Below, piece after piece: positions 22,706-46,677 of a stretch of 64,000 nucleotides of DNA. The notes under the pieces were generated by a model. That model was not told the DNA's origin. It made no database searches and worked only from the letters and a program-made list of their open reading frames with translations. The DNA is from an uncultured Hormoscilla sp. (GTDB taxonomy: Bacteria; Cyanobacteriota; Cyanobacteriia; Cyanobacteriales; Desertifilaceae). The stretch covers positions 4,384,001 to 4,448,000 of the forward strand of contig OZ001293.3 of NCBI GenBank assembly GCA_963921275.4, given 5' to 3'. Every line of letters starts with the position of its first letter. The stretch's first letter is position 1. Made by a program: the position numbers and the translations under genes.

Positions 22706-23132
22706 TTAGTCTTGACATATAATCTAGTATCATATAGAGGTTGACGTGGTTGGCAGCAAGTTATGGATTGTCCTGCGTTTTATCTCAGCCGCGAGTTGTA
22801 GAAGGGGCTGTGGGACTTGTTGGCGATCTTTTGTAACATGATGTACTTGGGAGTTAAAGGTTGAGAAAATGGGATTCAGTAAGCATACCCATCCTAGTTC
22901 GCGAGGGACAACAAGCTAACGGCTCAGCTCTTCCCCTCGCGAATGCGCTGCGCGCACGCTACGCGATCGGGAGATCTTGAGTCCTGAATTTCTGTCAAGC
23001 TTTGCCTATGCACCGGTGGTTGCCTGTGGGAGATACTGTTGCTGGTAACATTAATAATAGGCAGCACGCTACACGCTACGCTATTTTTCGATTCAGCCAA
23101 TATTTTTGGTAAAAATACTCATAAATGACGTA

Positions 23133-25795
23133 ATGAACGATTATCAAACTACTTCTCCTCTCAGGGTCAGCGGTAACGAGCCACTCCTCTTAGACGACCC
23201 CGATACTGTCTGGTTGATTCAGTCTGGTTCAATGGCAGTTTTTGCCGTGAGGGTCGTTGATGGCGTTCCCAAAGGAGCCCGTCGCTATTTGTTTAGCCTC
23301 ACAATTGATGAAGTCCTGTTTGGCATTGGTGGCCTTGGGGATACTCGATTCCTAGCCATTGCAGTTGCAGAAACTGCCCTCGTCCAATTGAGCTTAACAG
23401 ATTTAGTCGAGGGAGGACAATTAACTCACGTGCTTCATTGGCGCGATCGCCTCACCAACCTGTTCGCCCAGACAGATATATCTTTGACATTACCAGCATT
23501 TGAAAGGCTCGAAGATGCGAATAAACTCGCTTCTAATCTCAAGGAACTCCACAGAGAGTTTAGATCCAGTTTAGAGCAACTAGAACAACAGGAAAATGAA
23601 AATCAATTCAGCCAATTTCAAGAGCGCCAACGGCTCAATCAAAGGAGTATTAGAGGCGCAATTGGCGACCTGGTTTCGATCCTCAAGCCCAAACAGGGTC
23701 AATTGCTCCCAGAAGGAACGCCCTTACTAATTGCCGCAGGGGCTGTGGGACGGGCAATGGGGATTGAAATTCGTCCCCCCGCTCCTTCGGAAGATATGAA
23801 ACGGATCAAAAACCCCTTGGATGCGATCGCTCGCGCCTCTCGCATTTGTACCCGCCGCGTGCTCTTGAACGATGGCTGGTGGCGGACCGACTGCGGCCCT
23901 ATTTTAGCCTACAGGGAAGCGGACAATAGTCCTGTCGCCCTGCTGCCCGCAGGGCGGGGCAAGTATGAAATCTTTGACCCCTTACAACACAAGCGTTTTC
24001 CAGTTACTCCGGAGACAGTACGGCAGCTATATCCTTTTGCCTACACGTTCTACCGACCCTTTCCAGATAAAGAACTCAACGCCCTCGAACTCTTAAAGTT
24101 TTCCTTCCGAAGTCTAGGGCTAGATGTCATGATTATTTTGATCGTGGGCATCCTTGCTACTCTTCTGGGCATGATCTTTCCCCAAGCCACTGGCATAATT
24201 GTTGACAAGGTTATCCCGAGCTCCGATCGGGGGTTGCTATTCAAATCGGTTTCGGCTTGTTGGCAGCTAGTTTCGGCAAAGCTACCTTCGAGTTAGCTCA
24301 GGTATTTACTATTTTGAGGGTTCAAACCATCTCCAACTCCGCCAACCAAGCAGCACTCTGGGACCGGCTGCTGAAACTGCCCATTTCTTTCTTTCGCCAG
24401 TATACTACTGGTGACTTGCAAAACCGGGTTTCTGCAGTTAATCAGATTCGCCAAATCCTCGGCGGCACCGTCATGCGATCGCTGTTCAGCAGTTTTTTCT
24501 CCCTGCTGAATTTGGTTTTGATGCTTTATTACAGCATTAAGTTATCCTTGGCGGCAATGGCCATCGCCCTTGTCAATATTATCTTCACTACCATCTCGGG
24601 AATCCTCACTCACCAGAAAACGCGACCCCTGCAAAAAATCGCCGGGGAAATCTTTGGCTTGACCGTGCAGTTGCTCGGCGGCATTTCTAAACTGCGCATT
24701 GCTGGAGCGGAAAAGCGGGCCTTTGCCTACTGGACGAAACAATACAGCCAACAACTCTCCTTAATCTTAAGCACCGAACTCATTGAAGATGCGCTCAATA
24801 TCTTCAATACTGTATTGCCCACAATTAGCTCCATTATCATCTTTATCTTAGCCGTTAACTTAATCGCCGAGGCCCAGACTCAAGCAGAAGCCTGGCTATC
24901 GACTGGAACATTCCTCGTCTTTAACTCGGCCTTCGGAACCTTTCTCAGCGGTGTAACCAACCTGAGCAATACGATGATTGAAATTCTGGAGGTGACGATT
25001 CTCTGGGAACGCGCTCAACCGATTTTAGAAGCCAAACCAGAAACAGATCTCACTAAAGCAGATCCGGGACGACTTCGGGGTAATGTTAATCTCGCGGGAG
25101 TAACCTTCCGTTACCGAGAAAATGGTCCTCTTACCCTCAATCAGGTGACTGTTGAAGCCAAGGCTGGAGAATTTATCGCCCTCGTCGGTCCCTCAGGAAG
25201 CGGCAAATCTACCATTGTCCGCTTGCTGTTGGGTTTTGAAACTCCCGAAGACGGAACAGTTTACTACGACGGTCAGGATATCACCGGTTTAGATATCTCC
25301 GCCCTGCGGCGACAATTGGGAGTAGTCTTACAAAATGGTCGCATTAACAGCGGCTCAATTTTTGATAATATCGCCAGTAATGCATTGGTCACCATGGACG
25401 AGGTTTGGGAAGCCGCACTCCTGGCCGGATTTGCTGAAGATATCGAAAAAATGCCTATGGGCCTGCACACCGTTATCTCTGAAGGAGGCACCAATCTATC
25501 TGGGGGACAGCGACAGCGTTTGTTAATTGCTCGGGCCTTGGTTTTAAGACCAAAAATTATCATTTTTGACGAGGCTACCAGTTTCTTAGACAACCGCACT
25601 CAAGCTATTGTCACTCGGAGTTTAGAACCCTTGCAGGCAACTCGCATCGTTATTGCTCACCGCCTGAGTACTATTGCTAAGGCCGATCGCATCTATGTGA
25701 TTCAGGATGGTGTTGTCCTACAGCAAGAAACTTTTGACTAGCTGGCTTCTCAACCAGGACTTTTTGCTCAACTGATGGCTCGGCAGATGATGTAA
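23133..25795 (+). pseudogene. NHLP bacteriocin ABC transporter permease/ATPase (TIGR03797-like); frameshift ~24240 and TAG at 25739
   Basis: GPSGSGKS, LSGGQRQR, N-terminal cNMP-like domain and WWRTDCGPILAY. The frame continues LASQPGLFAQLMARQMM after the TAG. Confidence 0.9.
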
Positions 25796-25971
25796 TGGTT
25801 AGTGGGTTCTATAACAGGTAATATGCCTTCCATCGAAAATACTAATGCCCTAGACGATTCGGGCGGTTCGGGCGGTTCGGGCTGCTGTATCACATCAATG
25901 CCGAGATTCGCTATATCCCGTACACAGCAACGGGATTAGAAAATTGATAAAAATAAAGGAGGTAGACAACC

Positions 25972-26997
25972 GTGGAACAAACAATTGCCAAGTATCCTCA
26001 TTTTCAGGTCTTAAATGAAAGGGACATCGATTGGCTAGTCTCTCAAGGAAGGCAGGGAGAATGCCAGGCCGGGGAAATTCTGATTCAAGCCGGTCGCCAG
26101 GTAGAGTTCATACATATTTCTCTGTCGGGAACTTTGGCGGTTACAGCTTACCGTCAAGGAGAAGGAGAGCGGGAACTTAAAAAACTCTATGCTGGAGAAA
26201 TGATGGGAGAGATGTCTTTTTTAGATAATCAACTCCCCCCGACGACCATTAAAGTCCTAAAACAGTCTCGGGTGCTGTCCATTTCTAAGCAAGAACTAGG
26301 ACACAAGTTGGAACGGGACGAAGATTTTGCGACTCGCTTTTATCACCTGCTGGCTTTGAAACTATCTAACCAGTTGCGAGGACTGTCGGAATTATTGAGT
26401 CAAAATCAAGGGAGGGCAAGTCAACCTTTGCGCAAGGTACTACTGGTATTCGCGATTTTGCAGGATAGGGATATTGCTTGGGCGATCGCCAATGGGGTCT
26501 CCCAAAAGCTATCGGCGGGTACGGTGCTAATCCAGCAGGGCAAACCGGTCACGGCTGTGTATATATTACTGGAAGGAACCTTGGGTATCTATATTTCTCT
26601 GCCCCATGGGGGAGTAATGGCTGCTAAGGAAGTGGGACAATCGATGAAAGGGGAAATTCTTGGGGAAATGTCCTTTGTAGAAACGGGAACGGCTTCGGCA
26701 ACGGTAAAGGCGATCGCAGATTCTTGGTGCTTGGCAATTCCCCAAGCTAAATTGGCGTCTAAGTTGGCAGGAGACCTTCGAGGCGCTGCCAGGTTTTATC
26801 GCTCGATCGCCATCCTGATGTCCAACCGCTGGCGGGAACGCCTCTTCCGTCGCGGGTTTGCTACCCTCTATGAGGAGGGAAAACAAATGCTTTCTGAAGA
26901 CATAGAAGTAGAAGATGAACTGGATTTAGACACGATCGAAGGAACTGCTATTGCCGGCACTCGCTTCGATTGGATGATTAGACAGTTAAGTCGATGA
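25972..26997 (+). CDS. Bacteriocin-transport-associated tandem cyclic-nucleotide-binding protein (TIGR03896-like)
   Basis: Two cNMP domains (GEMMGEMSFL, GEILGEMSFV) and a DELDLD...AGTRFDWM tail. Confidence 0.85.
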   Translation: MEQTIAKYPHFQVLNERDIDWLVSQGRQGECQAGEILIQAGRQVEFIHISLSGTLAVTAYRQGEGERELKKLYAGEMMGEMSFLDNQLPPTTIKVLKQSRVLSISKQELGHKLERDEDFATRFYHLLALKLSNQLRGLSELLSQNQGRASQPLRKVLLVFAILQDRDIAWAIANGVSQKLSAGTVLIQQGKPVTAVYILLEGTLGIYISLPHGGVMAAKEVGQSMKGEILGEMSFVETGTASATVKAIADSWCLAIPQAKLASKLAGDLRGAARFYRSIAILMSNRWRERLFRRGFATLYEEGKQMLSEDIEVEDELDLDTIEGTAIAGTRFDWMIRQLSR

Positions 26998-27017
26998 TTG
27001 CGATCGAGGGAAAAGTC

Positions 27018-28640
27018 ATGTTTGGCCAGGATAAAAATGCAAAAAGGAATATTTTCCGCCAGGAATCCCTGGAACAACTCTCTTCACCAGAACGCTTGGA
27101 TCAGCTCATGCAGGCGATCGGCCCCAAGGACTGGCTGCCTTTAAAGGTGTTGGGAAGTCTAGTTTTCGCGGGATTGGTTTGGAGTATCTTCGGGCGCATT
27201 CCGATCGCCGTTGAAGGGCGAGGGATTCTTATCGATCCCCGTCGCGTCGCTAACTTGGAATCTCCTATTTCTGGTCAATTGTCCTCCTTAAATGTCCAAG
27301 CTGGTCAATGTGTTGCTCGGGACGAACTCCTGGCCACCATCGAACCTTCCGAATTGCGACAAAGGTTAAGGTCGGCCCAGAATCAAAAGACAGAATTACA
27401 ACGGCAATTCAATGAAACCACCATCCTTCTGTACCAAGGTGCTAACCTGGAAAAAGAGGCGATCGCCGCTTCCCAGGCCAGTATAGAGCAAAGCCTGCGG
27501 GACACCCGCTCCCTGACTCCCATTCTCAAAGATAAAGCCTTAAATTACCTTGCGGAACAACGCCGGAGTCTCCAACAACGCCTGGAGGATACCCAAGCAC
27601 TCACCCCCATTCTCAAAGACAAAGGTTTGGAGGCTATTGCCGAGCAACGGAATAGTCTCCAACAGCGCCTGGGTAATGCAAAAAAACTCTCGCCCATTTT
27701 GCGCGAAAGACTTGAAAAACGTCAGGCCCTGGCAGCAACAGGGGCGATCGAGCAAGATACCGTCCTGCAAGCAGAACAAGAATACATTGGCGCCCTGGAA
27801 AATATTGCTGACTTGGAAGCCGAACTGAAAAATCTGGATGTTCGGGAATCTGACGCCGAGCGACAATATCTGGAAAACCTCAGTCAGATTGGCAACCTCC
27901 AATCTCAACTCAAAGATTTAGATGTCAAAGAAGTAGAAGCGGAAAAGCAATATCTGGACAATCTTAATCGGATTAGCCAACTGGAAACCGAATTGCAAGA
28001 ATTAGAAACCAGGAAAAAGCGTTTGGAGCAAGAAAACCTCCAACAGCTCAACAGTAATAAAAATCAAATCCAGGAGGTAGAACGGGAGATTGCCCAACTG
28101 GAGCAACGGATTGCCGAGAACAGTAAAATTCTCAGTCCCAAGGCTGGCTGTATTTTAGAAATAACCGCTACCACCGGTCAGGTCGTCTCTCCAGGTACGC
28201 GCTTGGGGTCAATGAACATAGCGGGGAAAGAAAAAACCATCATGGGAGTCAGTTATTTTGCCATCTCTGACGGCAAGAAAATTGCCTTGGGAATGCCCAT
28301 TCAAATCACCCCTGACATTGTCAAGCGGCAGCGCTTCGGCGGGATTACCGGGACCGTTACTTCCATTTCCGAGTTTCCCGTCACCCAAGAAGGTGCAGCC
28401 ACGATTATCGGTAATCAGGAAGTCGTTAGTGGTTTAATTTCTGGGGGCGGCGTGATAGAAATTTGGGCCGAACTAGATGGGTCAGCCGACAGCTTCAGCG
28501 GTTACAAATGGTCTTCTTCCCAGGGACCCAAAATCAACATCACTCCCGGGACGACAACCACGGCCATAGTCCACGTAGAACAAAGGGCGCCGATTACTTT
28601 TGTCCTGCCAATTTTACGGGAGTGGACGGGCATATATTAG
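27018..28640 (+). CDS. NHLP bacteriocin secretion protein (HlyD family, TIGR03794-like)
   Basis: IFRQESLEQLSSPERLDQL, long coiled coil, GYKWSSSQGP, APITFVLP. Confidence 0.92.
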   Translation: MFGQDKNAKRNIFRQESLEQLSSPERLDQLMQAIGPKDWLPLKVLGSLVFAGLVWSIFGRIPIAVEGRGILIDPRRVANLESPISGQLSSLNVQAGQCVARDELLATIEPSELRQRLRSAQNQKTELQRQFNETTILLYQGANLEKEAIAASQASIEQSLRDTRSLTPILKDKALNYLAEQRRSLQQRLEDTQALTPILKDKGLEAIAEQRNSLQQRLGNAKKLSPILRERLEKRQALAATGAIEQDTVLQAEQEYIGALENIADLEAELKNLDVRESDAERQYLENLSQIGNLQSQLKDLDVKEVEAEKQYLDNLNRISQLETELQELETRKKRLEQENLQQLNSNKNQIQEVEREIAQLEQRIAENSKILSPKAGCILEITATTGQVVSPGTRLGSMNIAGKEKTIMGVSYFAISDGKKIALGMPIQITPDIVKRQRFGGITGTVTSISEFPVTQEGAATIIGNQEVVSGLISGGGVIEIWAELDGSADSFSGYKWSSSQGPKINITPGTTTTAIVHVEQRAPITFVLPILREWTGIY

Positions 28641-28693
28641 GCGGATCGCCTACCCGTCAATTTTGAAGAAATAATTTGTAATTGTCAGCAGTC

Positions 28694-30880
28694 ATGGCGA
28701 AAAAAAATCAGAAAGACACACCTCAAATTCCCAAGCGGGTTAAAACCCCAACCTTGCTACAAATGGAAGTAGTTGAGTGCGGTGCCGCTGCCTTGGGAAT
28801 TATTTTGGCTTACCACGGTCTGATCTTGCCATTACCAGAACTCCGCAGCAGTTGCGGGGTTTCTCGGGATGGTAGTAAAGCTGTAAATATGCTCAAGGCT
28901 GCCAGAAGCTACGGAATGCAAGCCAAGGGGTTTAAGAAAGATATCGACCAACTCCGGGAAATTCCCCCGTCCTTTATTGTTTTTTGGAATTTCAATCACT
29001 TCCTCGTGGTCGAAGGTTTTGTGGGAAACCGAATTTATTTGAACGACCCGGCCACGGGACCGCGAACTGTATCCTTTGAGGAATTTAATCGCGCCTATAC
29101 TGGCGTTGTTCTGATTTGTTCGCCGGGACCGGAGTTCAAAAAAGGAGGACGTAAACCCAGCATTATCGGCTCCCTCTACAGTCGCTTAAAAAACTCCTTG
29201 GGGATAATTTTGTATTGTATTTTGGCCGGTCTTCTCTTGGTCATCCCCGGGTTGGCCGTTGCTGTCTTCACCCAAGTCTTTGTCGATCGCATTCTGGTAG
29301 AAAATCGGATGAATTGGCTGCGTCCGTTGATTCTGGGCATGATCCTGACCGCGATCTTCCAATCCCTGTTAACATTTCTGCAATTTCGCTATCTAAGACA
29401 TTTGCAGATTAAGCTCTCAGTGGAGATGTCAACGGGCTTTCTCTGGCACCTGCTGCGCTTGCCCGCACGGTTTTATGCCCAACGGTTTCCTGGAGAAATT
29501 GGCGATCGCCTCCGCATTAATACTAAGGTAGCCAGCGTGCTTTCGGGTCAGTTAGCCACCACGGTTATTGATGCCGTGGTGGTGGTTTTTTACGCGGCTG
29601 TCATGTTTTCCTATGACTGGTTACTGACTTTAATCGGTCTATTCTTTTCGGGAATTAATGTCCTGCTCCTGCAGTGGGTGGGGCGGCTACGCAAAGATAC
29701 CTACATCCGCTTGAGCCAAGACCAGAGCAAGTTAGCGGGTGTCGGCATTGCGGCTCTGCAAAGTATAGAAACCCTCAAGTCGGCTACCCTAGAATCGGAT
29801 TTCTTTGCCCGTTGGGGTGGATATTACGCTAAAGTTAGCAATGCTCAACAGCAAATGGGAATTGTCAATCAGACCTTGGGAATTCTGCCCTCTCTGATTA
29901 CTTCCTTGACGACCCTATTTCTCCTTGTCGTTGGCGGCCTGCGGGTGATGAACGGTTATATCAGTATTGGCATGTTGGTGGCCTTTCAGAGCTTGATGCA
30001 AAGCTTTCAAAGGCCAGTTAATACCCTAGTCTCATTTGCCAGTACCCTTCAGGAGTTAGAAGGAGATCTCAATCGCTTAGACGACGTGCTCGACAATGAG
30101 GTGGATGGGCAGCTGGAACGGGAACCTCAGGATAGCAACTCGACCTTCTTTAAGCTGCAAGGGCATCTGGAGCTACGCAACCTCACCTTTGGCTATTCGC
30201 GGCTCGATTCGCCCTTAATTGAGAACTTCAATCTCTCCTTACAACCCGGACAGCGAGTCGCCTTGGTTAGGAGTAGCGGTTCGGGGAAATCAACTATTGC
30301 TAAGCTAGTGGTAGGGCTATATGAACCTTGGTCTGGGGAAATTCTTTTTGATGGCATCGACAGGGCTAAAATTCCACGGGAAGTATTGACTAATTCCCTG
30401 TCGATGGTGGAGCAAGAAATTTTCTGGTTCGGCGGTACGGTGCGGGATAATTTGACCCTGTGGGACGATACGATTCCTAAGGACCAGTTAATCCGCGCCT
30501 GCGAGGATGCGGCAATTTTGGATGCGGTTTGGGCCATTCCAGGGGGACTGGAGGGAAATTTGCTGGAAGGAGCGGCCAACATGAGCGGAGGACAACGTCA
30601 GCGATTGGAAATTGCCCGGGCCTTGGTTAACAATCCTTCGATCTTGGTGATGGACGAGGCCACTAGCGCTTTAGATGCGGAAATGGAGAAGATTATTGAC
30701 CAAAATTTACGGCGCCGGGGCTGTACTTGCCTGCTCGTGGCCCACCGGTTGAGTACGATTCGCGATTGCGACGAGATTATCGTCTTGGAACAGGGAAAGG
30801 TGGTGCAGCGGGGAACTCACGACCAGATGCGGGACGTGGAAGGCGCCTATGCTCGCTTGATTCAGTCTGAGTTCGGTTAA
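28694..30880 (+). CDS. NHLP bacteriocin C39 peptidase/ABC transporter (TIGR03796-like)
   Basis: QMEVVECGAA (catalytic Cys), WNFNHF, MSGGQRQR. Walker A reads RSSGSGKST. Confidence 0.93.
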   Translation: MAKKNQKDTPQIPKRVKTPTLLQMEVVECGAAALGIILAYHGLILPLPELRSSCGVSRDGSKAVNMLKAARSYGMQAKGFKKDIDQLREIPPSFIVFWNFNHFLVVEGFVGNRIYLNDPATGPRTVSFEEFNRAYTGVVLICSPGPEFKKGGRKPSIIGSLYSRLKNSLGIILYCILAGLLLVIPGLAVAVFTQVFVDRILVENRMNWLRPLILGMILTAIFQSLLTFLQFRYLRHLQIKLSVEMSTGFLWHLLRLPARFYAQRFPGEIGDRLRINTKVASVLSGQLATTVIDAVVVVFYAAVMFSYDWLLTLIGLFFSGINVLLLQWVGRLRKDTYIRLSQDQSKLAGVGIAALQSIETLKSATLESDFFARWGGYYAKVSNAQQQMGIVNQTLGILPSLITSLTTLFLLVVGGLRVMNGYISIGMLVAFQSLMQSFQRPVNTLVSFASTLQELEGDLNRLDDVLDNEVDGQLEREPQDSNSTFFKLQGHLELRNLTFGYSRLDSPLIENFNLSLQPGQRVALVRSSGSGKSTIAKLVVGLYEPWSGEILFDGIDRAKIPREVLTNSLSMVEQEIFWFGGTVRDNLTLWDDTIPKDQLIRACEDAAILDAVWAIPGGLEGNLLEGAANMSGGQRQRLEIARALVNNPSILVMDEATSALDAEMEKIIDQNLRRRGCTCLLVAHRLSTIRDCDEIIVLEQGKVVQRGTHDQMRDVEGAYARLIQSEFG

Positions 30881-30923
30881 TATGACGACAGCTTAAGTCC
30901 TGCCCTTAATATCGGCACTCTCT

Positions 30924-31015
30924 GCGCGACTCTGCGTTAAAGTCGCGCGACTCTGCGTTAAAGTCGCGCAACTCTGCGTTAAAGTCGCGCGACTCTGCGT
31001 TAAAGTCGCGCGACT
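30924..31015. repeat. 21-bp tandem repeat, ~4.4 copies
   Basis: GCGCGACTCTGCGTTAAAGTC head to tail. Confidence 0.92.
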
Positions 31016-31361
31016 TTGCCATAGAATCACGTGACTAATTTCTCAATCAATGTGACTTTAATCTAGATATGTAGCCCGCTGGCGCGGGCCCTCTCGACTT
31101 TGAAAAGGTTTGAGCAGGAACTTCTAGAGATGGGAGTCAAGGAACTGATTTAAGTAGATCCCCTCAGGGAAAAATTAGCAGATTGCGGTGAAGTAGTTAT
31201 TAGGGGAGTTACCTTCCCCGCCAGCCCCCAAGCAAGGGAAAAAGTAAAAAGAGGAAAGAAAATGATTCCAGAACTAGCGAAGCAACTATGTCTGTCAAAA
31301 AACGTCCGAATAGGGGGTGATGGAGGTGAAAAAAAAGTAGAAAGTAAAAGGAGGAAAGAAA

Positions 31362-32225
31362 ATAATTCCCGAACTAGTGAAGCAACAAGGGAACTTGATT
31401 TCCTTGGCCTGGAAGGATGAGGCATTCAAGCAAGTCCTTCTAAGCAATCCCTCTGAGGCGATCGCCTCAGAGTTGGGCATCTCTATCCCCCCAGGGACGG
31501 CGGTGCAGGTGCTGGAGGAAAAGGCCAACAGCCGCACGGTAGTCATCCCCCGGGAAGCCATAGGGCCAGAGAAACTGGAGCAGGTGAAAAGCCAGTGGGC
31601 AGAAGGGGAACTGTATCAGATAGCCAAGCTACTAGCTAGGGCGCAAGGAGAGGCGAAGTTCAAGGCATTCAGGCAAGTCCTTCTAAGCAATCCCAAAGAG
31701 GCGATCGCCTCAGAGTTGGGCATCTCTATCCCCCCAGGGACGACGGTGCAGGTGCTGGAGGAAAAGGCCAACAGCCGCACGGTAGTCATCCCCCGGGAAG
31801 CCATAGGGCCAGAGAAACTGGAGCAGGTGAAAAGCCAGTGGGGAGAAGGGGAACCGTATCAGATAGCTTCGCTGCTGGCCAGGGCGCAAGGAGAGGCGAA
31901 GTTCAAGCAGTTCCTGCTGTCCAGCCCCAAGCAGGCTATATCTAAGGCCCTGGGGACGGAACTCCCCCAGGATCTGGAAATTACCATGGTTTCCTCACAA
32001 CTGGATACGGAGTATATTATCCTGCCAGCTAAACCGGAAGGAGACCTGGAGGAACTGTCGGATGAAGAGTTGATGGCTGTTGCTGGGGGGAGCGAATTGA
32101 TTAAGATTACCATAGTGGGATCTGCTTCGGTATGTCTGTCGGCAGCGCTGTCGGTACTGCTGTTGGGGAGCGCTGTCGGTACTGCTGTTGGGGCAATCAC
32201 ATTCACTACCACAACCAATTGGTAG
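31362..32225 (+). CDS. NHLP-family RiPP precursor 1 (three leader modules; 44-aa core at 32091-32222)
   Basis: AWKDEAFKQVLLSNP repeats and the ELSDEELMAVAGG cleavage motif. The homologous start codon is ATA at 31362; alternative GTG at 31377. Confidence 0.88.
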   Translation: MIPELVKQQGNLISLAWKDEAFKQVLLSNPSEAIASELGISIPPGTAVQVLEEKANSRTVVIPREAIGPEKLEQVKSQWAEGELYQIAKLLARAQGEAKFKAFRQVLLSNPKEAIASELGISIPPGTTVQVLEEKANSRTVVIPREAIGPEKLEQVKSQWGEGEPYQIASLLARAQGEAKFKQFLLSSPKQAISKALGTELPQDLEITMVSSQLDTEYIILPAKPEGDLEELSDEELMAVAGGSELIKITIVGSASVCLSAALSVLLLGSAVGTAVGAITFTTTTNW

Positions 32226-32522
32226 ACGAGTTTGCTGGTACAGGGTAAGGACATGGGAAATTTTTCTTGCCCTTGCCCTGTTTGCTGAGGGAGGAAAACT
32301 CGGGCAGAAATCTGGCAGGGGGGAGTTTTCCCCCTCGTTATTGCCCTATAGTACTTTCCGCAGCGGAAAAGCGGAAACCATTGATTATAGGGCTCGGGGG
32401 ACTTGCCGGGATGAGAAAGTTGCAGTTATTATCGGGAATAGGGGTGCTTCCAGAAGAGGTGGTTATTAGGGGGTGACCTTCACCGCTTCCAAGCAAGGGA
32501 AAAGGTAAAAAGAGGAAAGAAA

Positions 32523-33122
32523 ATGATTCCAGAACTAGCGAGGCAACGAGGGAATTTGATTTCCAAGGCATGGAGGGATGAGGCATTCAGGCAGGTCTTT
32601 CTAAGCAATCCCAAAGAGGCGATCGCCTCAGAGTTGGGCATCTCTATCCCCCCAGGGACGACGGTGCAGGTGCTGGAGGAAAAGGCCAACAGCCGCACGG
32701 TAGTCATCCCCCGGGAAGCCATAGGGCCAGAGAAACTGGAGCAGGTGAAAAGCCAGTGGGGAGAAGGGGAACCGTACCAGATAGCCAAGCTACTAGCTAG
32801 GGCGCAAGGAGAGGCGAAGTTCAAGCAGGAACTGCTGTCTAGCCCCAAGCAGGTTATATCTAAGGCCCTGGGGACGAAACTCCCCCAGGATCTGGAGATC
32901 GCCATGGTTTCCTCACAATCGGATACGGAGTATATTATCCTGTCAGCTAAACCGGAAAAAGACCTGGAGGAACTGTCGGATGAAGAGTTGATGGCTGTTG
33001 CTGGGGGGAGCGAATTGATTAAGATTACCATATTGGCACTTACTATTATCAATATCGGCAGCGCTGTCGGTATTGCTGTTGGGGTTGGGGCAATCGCATC
33101 ATCTACCACAACCAATTGGTAG
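32523..33122 (+). CDS. NHLP-family RiPP precursor 2 (two leader modules; 37-aa core at 33009-33119)
   Basis: ISKAWRDEAFRQVFLSNPK, ELSDEELMAVAGG, and an AGAGGA RBS upstream of the ATG. Confidence 0.92.
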   Translation: MIPELARQRGNLISKAWRDEAFRQVFLSNPKEAIASELGISIPPGTTVQVLEEKANSRTVVIPREAIGPEKLEQVKSQWGEGEPYQIAKLLARAQGEAKFKQELLSSPKQVISKALGTKLPQDLEIAMVSSQSDTEYIILSAKPEKDLEELSDEELMAVAGGSELIKITILALTIINIGSAVGIAVGVGAIASSTTTNW

Positions 33123-33424
33123 ACGAGTTTGCTGGTACAGGGTAAGGACATGGGAAATTTTTCTTGCCCTTGCCCTGTTTACTGAGGGAGGAAAACTCGG
33201 GCAGAAATCTGGCAGGGGAGAGTTTTCCCCCTCGTTATTGCCCTATAGTACTTTCCGCAGCGGAAAAGCGGAAACCATTGATTATAGGGCTCGGGGGACT
33301 TGCCGAGAAAAGAAAATTGCAGTTATCATCGGGAAATAGGGTACTTCCAGGTAAAGTAGTTATCACTAATGCGCGATCGAACTCGGTTCCCCCAAACTGC
33401 CGTTTATTGCCCTTGCGTGAGACG

Positions 33425-34305
33425 ATGATTCCTACCTTAGCAGAGGCGGTTTTAGCCGTCAGCCCTTACATCCCTGCTAAACTGATTTCCGGGAAAAACC
33501 TCCGGCATATGAGAGCGATCGCATCTCACCTGCCGGGGGCGATCGCCAGTTTTTGGGGATTTGAATGTCGCCTGGGAGAAGAAGCGCCCCTTGGGGACTT
33601 TCTCATATCCGTTAAAGCTGATGAAGGTCGGGTGATCGTTGCAGGGACCCACGATAGTATAGAATTATCGGAGTCCCTGAAAACAAATCCAGTGTGGAAC
33701 CTAGGGTGCAAGTTCAGCCAGCATTGGGCGGATTCAACCTCTCCTATTTATGAGAAAGTAGATAACATGTGGTTGGAGTTCGATGTGGATGGGGAACCTC
33801 CTGCCATTCCCATCCCCAGCTTGTTCTTTGGTTGCAGTCCCACCCAAGTGGAAAATACAGGCATCACCTTGGCCAAGGCCGAACCGTCCTCTCATGAATG
33901 GGTAACGGAAACGGCATTAAAAATCCTCCTGGGGGATAGTTTGTCTGGGGAGATAGTACAAAAATTACGGCAATGCTTGGGGGCATTACCCCCAGAGGCA
34001 TATGTTTTTCAAATTGGGCTCATGCTTGCCAGAAAAGCCGAGACAATCAGACTCTGTATTCGCAACATTTCCCCTCAAAATATTATCCTCTATCTGGAGA
34101 AAATCGGCTGGACTGGTGCAATTGACCTTCTGCAAGGGACAGTATCGGAACTCGCCAGTTTTACAGACCGCATCGACCTAGATTTAGATGTGGGTAATGC
34201 CGTGTTGCCGAAAATCGGTTTAGAATGCTATATTGAAGGGCAACCTCGCAGCGAACCGAAATGGCTGGCATTTTTGTCCTATCTGGTAGAGGGGGGTTTG
34301 TGCTA
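33425..34305 (+). pseudogene. Putative RiPP-modifying enzyme (possibly aromatic prenyltransferase-like), 3'-truncated by IS607
   Basis: Protein-like from MIPTLAE through FWGFECRLG, NMWLEFD, QIGLMLAR, LDLDVG..PKIGLECY to VEGGLC, then runs into IS left-end sequence. Function is inferred. Confidence 0.55.
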
Positions 34306-35450
34306 CAAACCCGGGCCGCTTATCAACCAGCGAAATCGTCATAATCTTACCTTTTCTCTACCAACCAGTTTCGACCACACCCCAACCCTCAACCCTCCGC
34401 CCCCCACAAGCCCGTTAACAGCCTCGCCTTGGGAATTAGATCCGATACAGAAACTGACAATGTGCAAAAGAGCAGTCACGGAGTTGCGACTAAGTGCCCG
34501 AAAACCTACACATCTCTCACGCTTTGACGATAATTCAGTATCGTCGGGATTATTATCGGTAGCAAAACATTCTACTATTTCCGTATTATCGCGCTTTCCG
34601 GCAGGTCGGATTGTGTCTGTAATAAAGCTAATAAAGCTAATGCATTTAGCAAAAAACGAGCATTGGCTGCTCGCGAATAAATGAAACATGAGTATTATAG
34701 CCCAGCCCAAGCAGCTAACCTTTTGGGAGTGCATCCAGAGTCCGGAAGAAGGTGGGAAAGAGAAGGAAAAATCACGTCGTACAGGACGCCGAGTGGGCAG
34801 CGCCGCTTCCTCAAAAGGGAAATCGAGGGATTGCTCCTCATCGGGTTGCCAACTACAACTGTTTGTTATGCAAGGGTCTCAAGCTATTCCCAACGTGAAG
34901 ATGCAAGAGCCGACAACTTGAATACCTGCGCCTTCACTATCCAGAGGCGGAGTTCATTTCTGAAATTGGAGGGGGGCTTAATTTTAAGCGGCGGAAGTTC
35001 AAAGCCATTTTGGAACGAATTGTCGAGCAGGATATCCAGCGGCTTGTCGTTGCCCACCGCGACAGACTCTGCCGATTTGGATGGGAACTGGTTGAGTGGT
35101 TATGCAAATACAATGCAGTCCAACTCGTGGTTCTCAATGAACAACAACTCAGTCCAGAGCAAGAGCTTGTTCAGGATATGCTGTCCATCATCCATTGCTT
35201 CAGTTCTCGGCTCTACGGTCTCCGAAAGTACAGAAAAGAAATCAGCTCGAAAGTACGGGAAGAATCAATTCAAGAAAAGCCGGAATGTTCAGCCGAACAG
35301 TGTCCGAAAAATCCCGTTATTTCCCGATCGGGAACTTCACGCTATTTGGAAGCAATGACTAGCTGCTTATCGCTGGGTTTATAATCAGTGCGTTGAATTT
35401 TACAATAAGGGTCGCTCTCTGGCACCCAAGCAGTCGTTAGACCAAATCGA
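34305..35450 (+). mobile_element. Degenerate, right-truncated IS607 element (frameshifted tnpA at 34681-35384; tnpB stub)
   Basis: MerR-like HTH, CYARVSS, HRDRLCRFG, FSSRLYGLRKY; tnpB start KIPLFPD...WKQ*LAAYRWVYNQ. Confidence 0.88.
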
Positions 35451-36132
35451 ACTGCCTTTTTAGCTGCCGAAAAGCATTGTAAATCTCTTCTTCATAATAA
35501 CTGCAAAAATCAATATTTCTCCCAATTGTAAATCTCTTCTTCATAATGACTGCAAAAATCAATATTTCTCCCAAAGTTCTCTGCCTGGAGATATAGTTTA
35601 TAGCCGCCCTTCTTGGCCATATCGATAAAAGCCTTTTCCACCTGTAAGATCCGCCGATTACTCGCCCCGTCTCCCGTGCACATTCTGGACATGACTCCAA
35701 TGACCAGAAACGGTTCCGCTTGGGGATAGACCAAAGGCGGGTTGAACTGGAAGAAACGAATGAAATAATAATATCCCATGGGCGCGGCATTAAAAAAGGG
35801 ACCGGCCCATTCACCACCTTCAGGGATTATCTCATGGGGGTGAGCTTTGACGAACCTATAAAGGTCGATCCAGGCTTTCATTAACTCCTTTTGAGAAACT
35901 AATAAGCTGAACCCAAAAAGATTATTTTGCTTGCCATTTTTGGGAGGCCGATCGTTCTCTTTCGGATCGTCGGTTTGCCGCTTGACTATTTTCCCGGATG
36001 CACCCAGGAGCAACTCGCCCTTTTGGGGCAAGGAAACGCCGTTAAAGGTTCGGAAACTATTTCGATGCCTAAATCTGAAAATAACTCCTCCAGGGCCCTA
36101 TTGTCTGCTGGTATTAGCTCCTTCATTTGCAT
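35437..36132 (-). pseudogene. FAD-linked oxidase C-terminal-like protein, disrupted
   Basis: KLYLQ...SHYEEEIYNAFRQLKRQFD resembles the FAD-oxidase/cytokinin dehydrogenase C-terminus. Frameshift at ~36035, a 49-bp tandem duplication (35476/35525), and cut by IS607. Confidence 0.5.
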
Positions 36133-36135
36133 ACC

Positions 36136-37530
36136 TCAATCCAACCAGTGTAACCGATCTGGCGAAGGAACGAGATTGCCTTCTATAGCAGGTAAAGATT
36201 CCACCTGTTCCATCTGGGCGATCGCTGCGGTCAAGAGCATTTTCCCATTCAGCTGGCGTAGGGACTCAACCGAGGACATATTTTTGGGTAGGGGGCGTTT
36301 TTCGCGAATCAGACGATCTACATTTTGCTCGAATGGTTCCAAGCTAAAACTATTCGTATCTCTGAGCCATTTCCGCATCCAGGCATGGTAAGTCGGGCGT
36401 TCTTTTTTCATGTCATAAAGCCCTGACAACAATTGATAGAACCTGCTATACTCCAAGCGATAGCGCAGTTCAAATTCATGCAAGCAAACAGCTTCATCTA
36501 TCTCGCCCCGCAAAGTCGTGTTAATCGAGCGGGCGGCCAACAGGGCGCCATAGGTTGCCAAATGTACCCCCGAGGAAAACAGCACATCGATAAAGCAGGC
36601 AGCATCGCCAACCAGGAGAATACCTGGCTTCCAGAAATGGGAATGGCAGTAGGAAAATTCCTGACGCATGCGAATTTCCCCATAGGGAATTTCCCTTGCT
36701 GGCTGGGCCCCTGCCAAATATTCTGATATAATCGGACAAGCTGCAATATAATCTTGCAGAGTTCCGGCCAAATTTCCTCGATTCTCTTTGAGCTTGCCAG
36801 TCCGTTCTTCGGGCAATACAGCACCAACGCTAGTGAGAGTATCGTCAAGGGGGATGTACCACAACCACCCATCGTCAAATGCTTCAAATAGAACGTTTCC
36901 GCTGTCTGGTTGGGGCAGGCGTTTGCCGTTAACAAAATAGCCGTATATAGCGATATTGCGATAGAACTGGGAGTAGAGGCGATCGCCTACCTGCTGGGCC
37001 ATTTTGCTTTGATGTCCCGAAGCATCTACCACAAAACGGGCCGTTGCCCTTTCTTCACGACCGTTCCCATCGCCGAACACAACTCCCGTTACCCGATCGC
37101 CCGACCAAACCAAATTTTTCACTCGGTGTTGTTCGCGGACATCAACGCCCTTTTCTCTAGCATTATCCAGCAGAATGCGATCAAACTCCGCCCGTTTCAC
37201 TTGGTAGGCGTAGACTCTGCTATAGTCATTGGGGTCTCCTACAACTAGAGAGCTGCCAAAATTGAGAGTCCAAGCACCTGTTTCCTTGCCCCAAGAAAAA
37301 GTCCCACCCCTTTTCTTGATAAAACCCGCCTGCTTGACTGAGTCGCCAACACCAAGTAACTGCACAATACCATTGATTGTCGCTGGTAATAGGGACTCGC
37401 CAATTTGATAACGAGGGAAGCGTTCCCGTTCCAGCAAAAGCACCTTATGCCCCTGCATGGCTACCAGAGTGGCCGCTGTTGACCCTGCCGGTCCGCCTCC
37501 GATCGCAATCATATCGTATTCTTTGTCCAT
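36136..37530 (-). CDS. Flavin-dependent halogenase (CndH/VhaA-like phenolic type)
   Basis: GGGPAG, FPRYQIGESLLP, KRGGTFSWG (catalytic Lys region), WLWYIP, GDAACF..FSSGVHLA. Confidence 0.92.
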   Translation of the reverse strand: MDKEYDMIAIGGGPAGSTAATLVAMQGHKVLLLERERFPRYQIGESLLPATINGIVQLLGVGDSVKQAGFIKKRGGTFSWGKETGAWTLNFGSSLVVGDPNDYSRVYAYQVKRAEFDRILLDNAREKGVDVREQHRVKNLVWSGDRVTGVVFGDGNGREERATARFVVDASGHQSKMAQQVGDRLYSQFYRNIAIYGYFVNGKRLPQPDSGNVLFEAFDDGWLWYIPLDDTLTSVGAVLPEERTGKLKENRGNLAGTLQDYIAACPIISEYLAGAQPAREIPYGEIRMRQEFSYCHSHFWKPGILLVGDAACFIDVLFSSGVHLATYGALLAARSINTTLRGEIDEAVCLHEFELRYRLEYSRFYQLLSGLYDMKKERPTYHAWMRKWLRDTNSFSLEPFEQNVDRLIREKRPLPKNMSSVESLRQLNGKMLLTAAIAQMEQVESLPAIEGNLVPSPDRLHWLD

Positions 37531-43813: not shown

Positions 43814-45014
43814 TTAACCCGAAAAAATCTTGTAATTGCCGGAAATTTCTGAGTATGGCACAATCTGGAATGAAGCTATCAGGCCAGATGCGGAGGTATC
43901 TCTCAAAGCCTTCAACAAAATGTTGAAAGCGCCATTAATATCACGACTAATAGTGTGACCACATGAGGGACAAATAAATCGTTTGTTGCCTCCTAACTTT
44001 ATGTGAATGTGCCCACATTTTGAGCAAGTTTTGCTGGTGTACTCTTCCGTCACGTCTACTACAACACAGCCGTATTTAGCTGCTTGATGCTTGAACGTTT
44101 GCTTAAAACGGTAATGAGACCATGTAACCATTTTACGTGCTGTCTTAGTTGACAACCGTCGCTTGCCTCGTTTGACCATATTTTTAACCTCAAATGTAGG
44201 CAAAAATATGACTTTGTACTTGGTGCATAGATAGTTGGCTGCTTTCTTATGCAGTTCATCAACCAAGTTACGAATCTTAACCCGAATCTTTTGTGCCGCC
44301 TTTCGCAGGCAGTGCCGTAGCCGCTTAAATTGGCGTCCTTTAGATAAGCCGATTCGAGACATTAGCCGATCGAGATGACTGGCTAACCGATAGATACGAC
44401 CCATATCAGACTTGCCAACCTCCCAAATTTCTTGACCGTCAAACCCAGTTAGAAATGTCCTGACACCTGGATCAAGGGCGATGGCTAGCTCACTGTTTAA
44501 TGGTTCCAGTTTAGGCACGTCTATGGCATAACAGATAAACCAACGTCCTCTGTCTAGTACCAATGTAGGCTCATGGTGCATTTTGTCTATAATTGGCTCA
44601 CTTGCTTTGAACCTTAATCCTTTGGTCTGTGTTGGATAAAAATTTCCTTTTTTCCAGTTATTTTTCTGAAACCGGATAGACTTAACAGATTCACGTACTG
44701 AGCGAAATTTAGCATCTCCTCCTGATTTTCTTGCTGCTTTGTGTGCCTCATAAGCCTGAAATACCGCCAATTGGCGTGGGCTATATGGGGTTTGACTTAC
44801 CCAAGATGGAGCCATATCTATGACCGTTTTGCGTAGGTCATATTTACCAATCTTCTGATTTTTGAGTATAGCAATGGCTTGATTGAAGCACCATCTGGCT
44901 GCTGATATCCATTGAAACCAGGTTTTAGCTAATGCCGTTTCTGGGTAAACTCGAATCTTCTTTGATAGCAGATTTGTACTTCCTGAGTCCATAGAGTCTG
45001 CAACTGAAGACATG
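43814..45014 (-). CDS. tnpB: IS607 TnpB RNA-guided endonuclease (start uncertain; ORF open to 45505)
   Basis: KKIRVYP, IALDPGVR, EEYTSKTCSKCG...CPSCG, RDINGAFNI. Confidence 0.92.
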
Positions 45015-45512
45015 GACGATGACAAGGATATCCTCAACCATTTCTCGTTCTGGAGATAGGTCACTTCGGTTGAGAACCACGAGTTGGCAATCTTTTTGTT
45101 GACAGAGCCACTCGATAAGGTCAAGTCCAAACCTGACAAGTCTGTCTTTGTGGCAGACCACAACTTCTTTGACATCTCCTGACATGACTTGTCCCAGAAT
45201 GGATAAAAACCCTTTGCGTTTGTAGTTGAGTCCTGATCCGATTTCCTTGACAAGTTTTCCGTCTGTGAACAAGGATTGCAAATAGTCGGCTTGCCGTTCA
45301 AGGTCTGACTTTTGCTTATATGAACTGACTCTGGCGTAGAGGATTCTGATTCTTGGGGAGCCGTCTGGATTAATGACGGAGTCGATGTCGTATCGTCGAT
45401 GACCAGCGGGAGTTCTAATTGTCTGTATTTTTCCGTCTCTATCCCAGTTTCGGAGTGTTTTTTCCGAGACCTGAAGGACTTGTGACGCTTCTCTCGGTGT
45501 GGCATATCTCAT
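44925..45512 (-). CDS. tnpA: IS607 serine recombinase TnpA
   Basis: N-terminal HTH (TLRNWD, RTPAGHRRY), LYARVSS, EIGSGLNYKR, HKDRLVRFG. Confidence 0.95.
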   Translation of the reverse strand: MRYATPREASQVLQVSEKTLRNWDRDGKIQTIRTPAGHRRYDIDSVINPDGSPRIRILYARVSSYKQKSDLERQADYLQSLFTDGKLVKEIGSGLNYKRKGFLSILGQVMSGDVKEVVVCHKDRLVRFGLDLIEWLCQQKDCQLVVLNRSDLSPEREMVEDILVIVHVFSCRLYGLRKYKSAIKEDSSLPRNGIS

Positions 45513-46536: not shown

Positions 46537-46677
46537 TCTTCCGTTTTATTTTAACGACTGGCTACATATTAGTCCGTTTGACTATATATGAAAGTAAAGT
46601 TTTGCAAAGATTGTCTAGCGGTCAGTTGTTAGCAGTCAGTTGTTAGCGGTCAGTTGTCAGTACCATACCTAGGGGTC

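What the first reader, a model, noticed from the sequence alone, without database searches (positions are those of the whole stretch)
31362..33008. Precursor leaders built from tandem NHLP modules (2x and 3x)
Precursor 2 has a ~162-aa leader with two NHLP-like modules (AWRDEAFRQVFLSNPK... and AQGEAKFKQELLSSPK...). Precursor 1 gained a third through an in-frame 243-bp (81-aa) duplication (31421 vs 31664). Typical NHLP leaders have one module. Extra modules could form an intramolecular pseudo-dimer, bind several enzymes, or solubilise the very hydrophobic core (inference).
Basis: partly seen in the sequence, partly recalled or inferred. Interest (0 to 1): 0.78.

Follow-up and report, generated by a model that had tools for sequence, protein, structure and literature searches.

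The report
Doubled folded leader on peptide precursors
Two neighbouring cyanobacterial genes for natural-product peptide precursors carry two and three copies of a folded "leader" module instead of the usual one; the two-copy form turns out to be common across bacteria and is predicted to fold into one unit shaped like the core of the enzyme nitrile hydratase, while the three-copy form is a recent local duplication in a gene cluster that is likely decaying.

Summary
Observation confirmed. TIGR03793 matches 2 stretches in precursor 2 (P2) and 3 in precursor 1 (P1). The 243-bp in-frame duplication is 95% identical, and contig depth supports three real copies (2.6x seen, 2.64x expected).

Two-module leaders are not rare: 137 of the 150 best 50%-identity representatives have two modules, 4 have four, 1 has three (the query favours doubles). 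They sit beside LanM, YcaO, radical-SAM and prenyltransferase-like genes and arose repeatedly. AlphaFold folds P2's leader as one confident unit whose best match is the whole nitrile hydratase alpha core (Z 9.6, 130 residues, rmsd 3.9), which itself scores as two modules. A split-module test gave only weak support for pairing (0.44 vs 0.02).

P1's third module is a recent chimeric duplication. P1's start is ATA, one transporter is frameshifted and the prenyltransferase-like gene is truncated, so this cluster is likely dying.

Nine paper searches found no description of doubled canonical NHLP leaders; fused NHLP-Burk pairs are the precedent. The scan noted doubled NHLP proteins twice before on other DNA. 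Verdict: new variant of a known kind.

The parts
23106..25741 (+). NHLP export ABC transporter without peptidase (TIGR03797), in two ORFs (23106-24296, 24257-25741); frameshift near 24242
   Evidence: one-base gap against the same-genus genome G004
25972..26997 (+). Cyclic-nucleotide-binding, bacteriocin-transport-associated protein (TIGR03896)
   Evidence: 292.7 bits, cut-off 161
26994..28640 (+). NHLP secretion adaptor, HlyD type (TIGR03794)
   Evidence: 354 bits, cut-off 156
28682..30880 (+). NHLP ABC transporter with C39 peptidase (TIGR03796), the likely Gly-Gly cutter and exporter
31262..31420 (+). 52-aa ORF from the ATG that has P2's start context; out of frame with P1 because of a ~100-bp duplication of the start region
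   Evidence: (family D4)
31362..32225 (+). Precursor 1: three-module leader; in-frame codon at 31362 is ATA, first common start GTG 31377; Gly-Gly ends 32090; 44-aa core ending in Trp
   Evidence: ATA region covered without differences in 3 of 4 runs
31386..31550 (+). P1 module 1 (A type)
   Evidence: 74.6 bits
31620..31793 (+). P1 module 2 (chimeric: B-type helix 1, 3 extra residues, A-type remainder)
31863..32027 (+). P1 module 3 (B type)
   Evidence: 54.4 bits
31420..31907 (+). 243-bp tandem duplication (copies 31420-31664 and 31663-31907, 94.7% identical)
   Evidence: depth ratio
32523..33122 (+). Precursor 2: 162-aa two-module leader, Leu-x4-Leu at -12 to -7, Gly-Gly ending 33008, 37-aa hydrophobic core ending in Trp
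32547..32711 (+). P2 module A (three helices, beta hairpin in the model)
32781..32945 (+). P2 module B (three helices, beta hairpin in the model); 23% identical to module A
33425..34304 (+). Aromatic (ABBA-type) prenyltransferase-like gene, truncated: homology to relatives stops about 64 residues before the end of the 358-aa orthologue, at a small dispersed repeat
34681..35358 (+). IS607-type transposase remnant
36136..37530 (-). Flavin-dependent halogenase, closest solved relative 3E1T; link to the precursors uncertain

Best explanation
Both genes encode NHLP (proteusin-type) peptide precursors whose leader holds two (P2) or three (P1) copies of the ~55-residue NHLP module; the two-module leader is predicted to fold as one compact paired unit arranged like the core of nitrile hydratase alpha without its metal-binding cysteines, and P1's third module is a recent local duplication in a likely decaying gene. 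Shown: module counts, the duplication, a single Gly-Gly after the last module, the NHLP export genes upstream, and the wide spread of two-module leaders. Predicted: the two modules pack on each other in a fixed orientation, with a linker helix where nitrile hydratase has its CxxCSC loop. Inferred from work on single NHLPs: the last module's Leu-x4-Leu/Gly-Gly tail directs the C39 transporter to cut and export the core, and the folded pair serves as an enlarged, stable docking surface for tailoring enzymes; in the intact ancestor of this cluster the prenyltransferase-like enzyme would likely have lipidated the core's terminal Trp. Inferred from damage to three genes: this particular cluster probably no longer makes its product, and P1's odd module has no partner and no selected role.
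For: AlphaFold2 model of P2 from a 115-row alignment: pLDDT 93-98 in ten-residue blocks over residues 11-140, pTM 0.73 although 37 of 199 residues are disordered, which implies a fixed orientation of the two modules (the implication is my inference). Best structural matches are whole nitrile hydratase alpha chains (4zge_A Z 9.6, rmsd 3.9, 130 aligned; 4ob1_A Z 8.6, 123 aligned among 48,161 chains), above single NHLPs (8tb1 Z 5.4, 56 aligned). By sequence, module A aligns to alpha-subunit residues 55-109 and module B to 133-188. A module profile built from 158 precursor-like hits scores two modules, flanking CxxCSC, in 6 of 6 nitrile hydratase alpha ORFs examined. Split modules A and B as two chains: weak support, score 0.44, best of 3 controls 0.02; runs agree in at least 95% of contacts, partner pLDDT at least 71; at 0.60 or under the mark was reached by 18 of 157 solved complexes and by both of the 2 of 215 mismatches that passed. 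Module counts among the 150 listed representatives: 137 two, 8 one, 4 four, 1 three with a partial first module. In four-module P0010 the pair was duplicated (modules 1-3 83%, 2-4 88%, 1-2 50% identical). In the P1 model modules 2+3 are confident and superpose on nitrile hydratase, while module 1's hairpin has low confidence. Decay: ATA start, frameshifted ABC gene, truncated prenyltransferase-like gene; P1 module 1 vs P2 shows 12 replacement and 5 silent codon changes; same-genus genome G004 lacks window 25856-33419, including both precursors.
Against: All structural evidence is predicted; no contacts could be inspected. rmsd near 4 A (6-7 A and TM 0.44 by Foldseek) means the packing is similar to, not the same as, nitrile hydratase, and both predictors may lean on those solved structures. 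Single NHLP MprE7 is a monomer by SAXS (PMC10858898, passages), so pairing is not needed for folding. First and second modules show no position-specific signature across the family (mean identity 0.340 first-first, 0.331 second-second, 0.331 first-second) and linkers range from about 7 to 70 residues, which fits loose tandem copies as well. The four-versus-three count is tiny, three of the four four-module proteins may be one lineage, and the pair pattern is clear only in P0010, weak in P0013 and absent in P0012 and P0015. The low confidence of P1 module 1 may come from a shallow alignment there (about 5 of 47 rows), and it still matched 8tb1 at rmsd 2.1 over 56 residues. ATA or GTG could still start P1 at a low level. 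No enzyme-leader binding was tested.
Confidence: 0.6

Rival explanations
1. Beads on a string: the extra modules are tolerated tandem duplications that fold separately and do nothing; enzymes and transporter read only the last module and its tail.
For: Doubling arose many times: in 29 of 161 two-module proteins the two modules meet in a clade of 4 tips or fewer, and some are 93-98% identical within one protein. No position-specific signature. The brominase SrpI does not need the folded nucleus (PMC10858898, passages). Singles and doubles share clusters (L015, L021, L046). P1 shows how easily a module is added.
Against: Doubles persist at a median 38% identity between their modules with the fold motifs intact, triples are nearly absent among hits where they should rank high, and the P2 model is a single rigid unit.
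Confidence: 0.22
2. Two docking pads: each module binds a different tailoring enzyme, or two subunits of one enzyme, whether or not the modules touch.
For: Different enzymes use different NHLP surfaces: LanM inserts residues into the helical nucleus (PMC12537861, passages), YcaO binds helix 1 (PMC12455567, part 2), and the prenyltransferase MppC is leader-dependent (PMC12715784, part 1). P2's modules are only 23% identical.
Against: Doubles occur with every enzyme class seen and beside single-module precursors in the same clusters; no binding was tested. Compatible with the best explanation rather than exclusive.
Confidence: 0.1
3. Solubility tag: extra modules keep a very hydrophobic core soluble until export.
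For: P1 and P2 cores have mean hydropathy 1.25 and 1.23; doubles have a higher median (0.46, n=91) than singles (0.09, n=8).
Against: Only 17 of 91 double cores exceed 1.0; the closest relative P0003 has 0.66; the three four-module cores measured have a median of -1.26; the single-module sample is small.
Confidence: 0.04
4. Relic lineage: two-module leaders descend directly from nitrile hydratase alpha by loss of the cysteine loop, and single leaders came later by losing one repeat.
For: Collinear sequence and fold match to the alpha subunit, including the acidic tail motif.
Against: In a tree of 378 modules the two nitrile hydratase repeats form their own groups, single modules are scattered, and many doubles come from recent self-duplication (55 columns, weak support at depth).
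Confidence: 0.03
5. The 243-bp duplication is an assembly artefact.
For: The three-module protein is on record only from this contig; no contig was seen bridging the junction (table cut).
Against: Three distinct versions of the repeat, 13 differences between the tandem copies, depth 2.6x as expected for three copies in two runs with a matching control.
Confidence: 0.01

Closest known systems
Canonical NHLP / proteusin precursors (TIGR03793; MprE7 PDB 8TB1, DprE2 PDB 9CJX)
   Same: Each module scores with TIGR03793 and superposes on 8TB1/9CJX at 2.0-2.3 A over 56 residues; Leu-x4-Leu at -12 to -7, Gly-Gly cut site, variable core, TIGR03794/03796/03797 export genes.
   Different: Leader is 162 or about 240 residues with two or three folded modules instead of about 83-87 residues and one (PMC2887384, passages); no structure or assay of a two-module leader found in the papers searched.
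Nitrile hydratase alpha subunit (TIGR01323, PF02979)
   Same: Two tandem modules in the same order followed by a similar acidic motif; best fold match over 123-130 residues; the alpha subunit scores as two modules.
   Different: No CxxCSC metal site (a helix links the modules), no N-terminal arm, no beta subunit gene nearby, far below the family cut-off (52 vs 250 bits), ends in Gly-Gly plus core; rmsd about 4 A.
NHLP-Burk precursors (TIGR03795), fused tandem pairs in Delftia and Acidovorax (PMC2887384, PMC4603692; passages)
   Same: Two NHLP-clan units in one polypeptide.
   Different: Described there as fusion of two whole precursors of a two-peptide product; here one core follows a doubled leader with no internal Gly-Gly. 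P2 scores 35.8 bits (cut-off 41); P1 41.1, marginal and summed over repeats.
Os1348 (PDB 6LK7; PMC7726476, passages)
   Same: An NHLP-clan small protein that forms a homodimer in the crystal.
   Different: All-helical, weak match to the model (Z 3.0-3.5); authors saw no similarity to nitrile hydratase; the dimer is between chains.
Leader-dependent RiPP prenyltransferase MppC (PMC12715784, part 1 of 3) and brominase SrpI (PMC10858898, passages)
   Same: ABBA-type prenyltransferase or flavin halogenase acting on a core Trp of a long-leader precursor; both cores here end in Trp.
   Different: Orthology to MppC or SrpI was not tested; the prenyltransferase-like gene here is truncated; the halogenase is closest to 3E1T and has no hit at E 1e-10 to the halogenase in NHLP cluster L046.

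Membership tests
NHLP (proteusin) precursor | TIGR03793 above curated cut-off | tested here: met
   146 and 115 bits vs 50.9; 4 of 5 single modules over cut-off on their own, the chimeric one 43.6
NHLP (proteusin) precursor | Gly-Gly cut site with Leu-x4-Leu at -12 to -7, then a variable core | tested here: met
   sequence; core differs wholly from that of the 81%-identical P0003
NHLP (proteusin) precursor | Three-helix plus beta-hairpin fold | tested here: met
   predicted model; for P1 module 1 the hairpin is low-confidence
NHLP (proteusin) precursor | Linked export cassette TIGR03794/03796/03797 | tested here: met
   TIGR03797 gene is frameshifted
NHLP (proteusin) precursor | An intact tailoring enzyme that modifies the core | tested here: inconclusive
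   prenyltransferase-like gene truncated; halogenase intact but link unproven
NHLP (proteusin) precursor | Expression, cleavage and modified product | not testable with these tools
   no RNA holder listed; needs experiment
Nitrile hydratase alpha subunit | CxxCSC metal-binding motif and TIGR01323 cut-off | tested here: not met
   motif absent from both precursors; 72.7 and 52.1 bits vs 249.85
Nitrile hydratase alpha subunit | Two-repeat core fold | tested here: met
   predicted model, Z 8.4-9.6, rmsd 3.9-4.3; works like it in architecture only
NHLP-Burk (TIGR03795) | Model cut-off; tandem pair with YcaO cyclodehydratase and kinase | tested here: not met
   P2 35.8 vs 41, P1 41.1 summed over repeats; no YcaO among the 19 long ORFs scanned at 16.7-48.9 kb

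The most novel reading that the evidence does not exclude
Two-module NHLP leaders are an overlooked, widespread subclass of RiPP precursors whose leader is a full pseudo-symmetric protein domain, re-created many times by self-duplication and converging on the architecture of the nitrile hydratase alpha core; the pair is the folding unit (so two and four modules persist and three do not), and nitrile hydratase alpha itself arose as such a doubled module that gained a metal-binding loop at the junction.
Probability: 0.35. Interest if true: 0.72.

Novelty: new variant of a known kind. Interest (0 to 1): 0.48.

Why it matters
NHLP leaders are studied as small folded proteins whose surfaces decide which enzymes modify the core. 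A doubled form in well over a hundred distinct sequence clusters gives a natural series (one, two, four modules, sometimes in one cluster) for testing what the fold is for and for building leaders with two docking faces. It also recasts the link to nitrile hydratase: the 63-residue 'deletion' described in 2010 corresponds to one of two repeats of the alpha subunit, which makes the direction of evolution between enzyme and leader testable. Length filters in genome mining may miss 170-230-residue precursors (inference). This locus is a poor model, as it appears to be decaying; intact clusters such as L019, L020, L042 and L046 are better.

Tried and rejected
Assembly artefact: rejected. Uniqueness of the tandem leader: rejected. 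The word-indexed homologue searches were insensitive: 9 hits with P2 and 13 with the family alignment, so they add nothing on three versus four modules. Locus scans found 3 single-module relatives in genome contigs and none in metagenome contigs in two scans, so no intact close relative of this cluster was seen. No match to the P2 leader in 13 same-family genomes at E 0.001. No RNA holder listed. The prenyltransferase-like family has no Pfam or NCBIfam hit and no PDB sequence hit; its assignment rests on Atlas feature and structure neighbours (Trp_DMAT, DUF5838, PTase_Orf2; scores 0.88, TM about 0.6), a lead only. My first idea that an IS607 element cut that gene was corrected: homology ends at a small dispersed repeat, and the IS607 piece lies further on. 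The query labelled 'down' was in the wrong frame and is disregarded. Position-specific signatures of first versus second modules: none found. Direct descent of doubles from nitrile hydratase: not supported by the module tree. Papers read without bearing: PMC9259500 and PMC8939145 (passages).

Full report
1. Observation. The window holds two tandem precursor genes after an NHLP export cassette. P2 (32523-33122) is 199 aa with a 162-aa leader ending in Gly-Gly; P1's frame runs 31362-32225. TIGR03793 matches two stretches in P2 and three in P1, both above cut-off; Pfam NHase_alpha also matches. A 245-nt segment is repeated at a spacing of 243 with 94.7% identity. The tandem copies differ at 13 sites, and each differs from P2's copy at 9 or 10. 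In two runs the contig shared by the copies is about 2.6 times as deep as unique contigs, matching the 2.64 expected from word counts for three copies and not the 2.0 for two; a two-copy control behaved as expected (ratios are my arithmetic). These runs come from one study and may be the source, and no contig was seen bridging the junction because the table was cut.

2. Anatomy. Each module is about 55 residues. P2 has an A and a B module, 23% identical, joined by 23 residues. P1 is A, chimera, B: the duplication joined the start of B to the start of A with three extra residues. There is one Gly-Gly, after the last module, preceded by Leu-x4-Leu at -12 to -7. Both cores are hydrophobic and end in Trp; P2's has no Cys, P1's has one. 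Upstream lie TIGR03797, TIGR03896, TIGR03794 and TIGR03796 genes. Downstream is a gene of an unnamed family (276 homologues; the closest named one is labelled Hormoscilla sp. GUM202 by its source) whose Atlas neighbours point to aromatic prenyltransferases (a lead), then an IS607 remnant and, on the other strand, a flavin halogenase closest to PDB 3E1T.

3. The cluster looks damaged. P1's in-frame start is ATA, the proper ATG being displaced out of frame by a 100-bp duplication; the region is covered without differences in 3 of 4 runs. The TIGR03797 gene has a one-base frameshift against same-genus genome G004 (real change or sequencing error not settled). The prenyltransferase-like gene lacks about 64 C-terminal residues, including two nearly invariant motifs. 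G004 has lost window 25856-33419 with both precursors but keeps that gene whole. P1 module 1 differs from P2 by 12 replacement and 5 silent codons, the rest of the P1 leader by 10 and 9 (small counts).

4. How common is the architecture. The P2 leader found 1,650 representatives at E 0.001 among 1.84 billion; the best 150 were listed. A module profile built from those and the hits gave, for the 150: 137 with two modules, 8 with one (one of them, P0011, a fragment that begins inside its first module), 4 with four, 1 with three. The query favours multi-module hits over singles, so this is no frequency estimate against singles, but triples would not be disfavoured. Of the 144 doubles in the full set of 158, 92 have a Gly-Gly-type motif by my pattern, at a median position of 161, and none has that motif between modules; 1 of the 158 carries a CxxCSC string, position not examined. 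With the one-module family model, 33 of 401 genomes of the phylum matched (at most 13 candidates scored per genome); most strong matches were singles; reading the ORFs showed clear doubles in 4 genomes besides this one, a weak double-like protein in a fifth, and nitrile hydratase alpha in 5. Ten further loci were fetched around top hits (8 of them's family search) and all 8 of those held doubles. Neighbours of doubles include LanM (L019, L020, L041, L042, L046), YcaO (L015), radical SAM (L021, L044, L048) and the same prenyltransferase-like family (L020, L048); L022, L023 and L043 showed no such enzyme among the ORFs I scanned and their doubles lack the Gly-Gly pattern. Singles and doubles coexist in L015, L021 and L046. 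A relative 81% identical to P2 (P0003) has the same two-module leader and an unrelated core.

5. Structure. AlphaFold2 with 115 aligned doubles gave two helix-helix-helix-hairpin modules joined by a helix, pLDDT 93-98 over residues 11-140, pTM 0.73, core disordered. The best matches are nitrile hydratase alpha and thiocyanate hydrolase gamma chains over both modules (Z 8.0-9.6, rmsd 3.9-4.9, 118-139 aligned), then single NHLPs 8TB1 and 9CJX (Z 5.4, 5.1; 56 aligned). By sequence, A aligns before and B after the alpha subunit's cysteine motif, and 6 of 6 alpha-subunit ORFs examined score as two modules. Haft et al. describe NHLP as the alpha subunit minus 63 residues around CxxCSC (PMC2887384, section 5 read); my results say that this stretch amounts to one of two repeats. 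I recall that structural classifications note an internal duplication in the alpha subunit; that is memory, and searches did not surface it. The split-module prediction gave weak support only: 0.44 against a best control of 0.02, runs agreeing in at least 95% of contacts, partner pLDDT at least 71; passes at 0.60 or under were reached by 18 of 157 solved complexes and by both of the 2 of 215 mismatches that passed, and likeness to nitrile hydratase may explain it. In the P1 model (47 rows) modules 2 and 3 are confident, module 1's hairpin is not, pTM 0.59; few rows cover module 1, and it still matches 8TB1 at 2.1 A.

6. Origin. Modules within a double are a median 38% identical, up to 98%; first and second modules have no family-wide signature. 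In a tree of 378 modules, 29 of 161 doubles have their two modules within a clade of four tips or fewer, nitrile hydratase repeats group apart, and singles are scattered (55 columns, unrooted, weak at depth; no rows dropped beyond matches under 35 residues). Doubling therefore happened repeatedly. In P0010 the pair itself was doubled; in the other three four-module proteins that pattern is weak or absent.

7. Mechanism. Best reading (0.6): the pair folds as one unit and acts as an enlarged docking domain, while the tail directs cutting and export; P1's third module is an accident. Published single-NHLP work shows LanM and YcaO need the folded part and SrpI does not (PMC12537861, part 1 of 10 and passages; PMC12455567, parts 1 and 2 of 3; PMC10858898, passages), that MprE7 is monomeric, and that a long-leader prenyltransferase geranylates a core Trp in a leader-dependent way (PMC12715784, part 1 of 3). 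The main rival (0.22) is tolerated duplication without function. Solubilisation is weakly supported.

8. Prior description. Nine searches found no paper on doubled canonical NHLP leaders; phrases such as 'two NHLP', 'tandem NHLP' and 'double NHLP' had no occurrence in the listing. The library lacks most subscription papers, and I read no supplements, where precursor tables could show such sequences. Precedents are fused NHLP-Burk pairs (PMC2887384 and PMC4603692, passages) and the Os1348 homodimer (PMC7726476, passages). Some multi-module proteins are already auto-annotated as NHLP precursors. Earlier scan notes e1-977966 and e1-3140940 report doubled NHLP proteins in other genomes; they are unchecked and not counted as support.

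9. Verdict. Real; a new variant of a known kind. The general two-module class and its match to the nitrile hydratase core are the interesting part; the three-module gene is a local curiosity in a likely decaying cluster. Interest 0.48.

Noticed in passing
window 32091-32222 vs 33009-33119: The two cores differ partly by compensating frameshifts: a 25-bp repeat in P1 is read in two frames, so ten residues of P1's core are the alternative-frame reading of a segment of P2's core.
   Followed up: partly
window 30903-31036: 21-bp tandem repeat with internal palindromes between the transporter and P1; contigs of all four runs show a form 42 bp shorter and copies elsewhere.
   Followed up: no
window 34315-34383: About 68-bp element at the break of the prenyltransferase-like gene, with 7 similar places elsewhere in the genome at 84-91% identity.
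   Followed up: partly
window 33425-34304; P0160-P0278; L017, L020, L040, L048: A family of about 380-aa proteins with no Pfam, NCBIfam or PDB sequence hit, likely ABBA prenyltransferases, found next to NHLP precursors in several genomes.
   Followed up: partly
L015:2566-4296 (-): A Nif11-leader domain fused to Cache, HAMP and a phosphatase-like region in a YcaO/NHLP cluster.
   Followed up: no
P0004-P0009, L041, L022, L023: Separate two-module NHLP groups without the Gly-Gly motif: one with Cys-rich tails (L041 lies beside LanM), one with Trp-rich linkers and tails and no tailoring enzyme among the ORFs scanned.
   Followed up: no
P0012, P0013, P0015: Four-module leaders; P0012 and P0013 have Arg/Trp/Gly-rich cationic cores; cluster members are labelled Trichodesmium and Calothrix by their sources.
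   Followed up: no
L026:4450-5346 (-), L027:4059-5381 (-): Lipoprotein-like ORFs with two weak NHLP-like modules after an apparent signal peptide, in distant members of the phylum.
   Followed up: no
window 43814-45505 (-) and 46654-48909 (+): TnpB-family nuclease with a long N-terminal extension, and a phosphorothioation-associated methyltransferase (TIGR04096).
   Followed up: no
window 35476-35573: 49-bp exact-length tandem duplication in the decayed region between the IS607 remnant and the halogenase; G004 has two ORFs here (one FAD-binding) that are broken or missing in the window.
   Followed up: no
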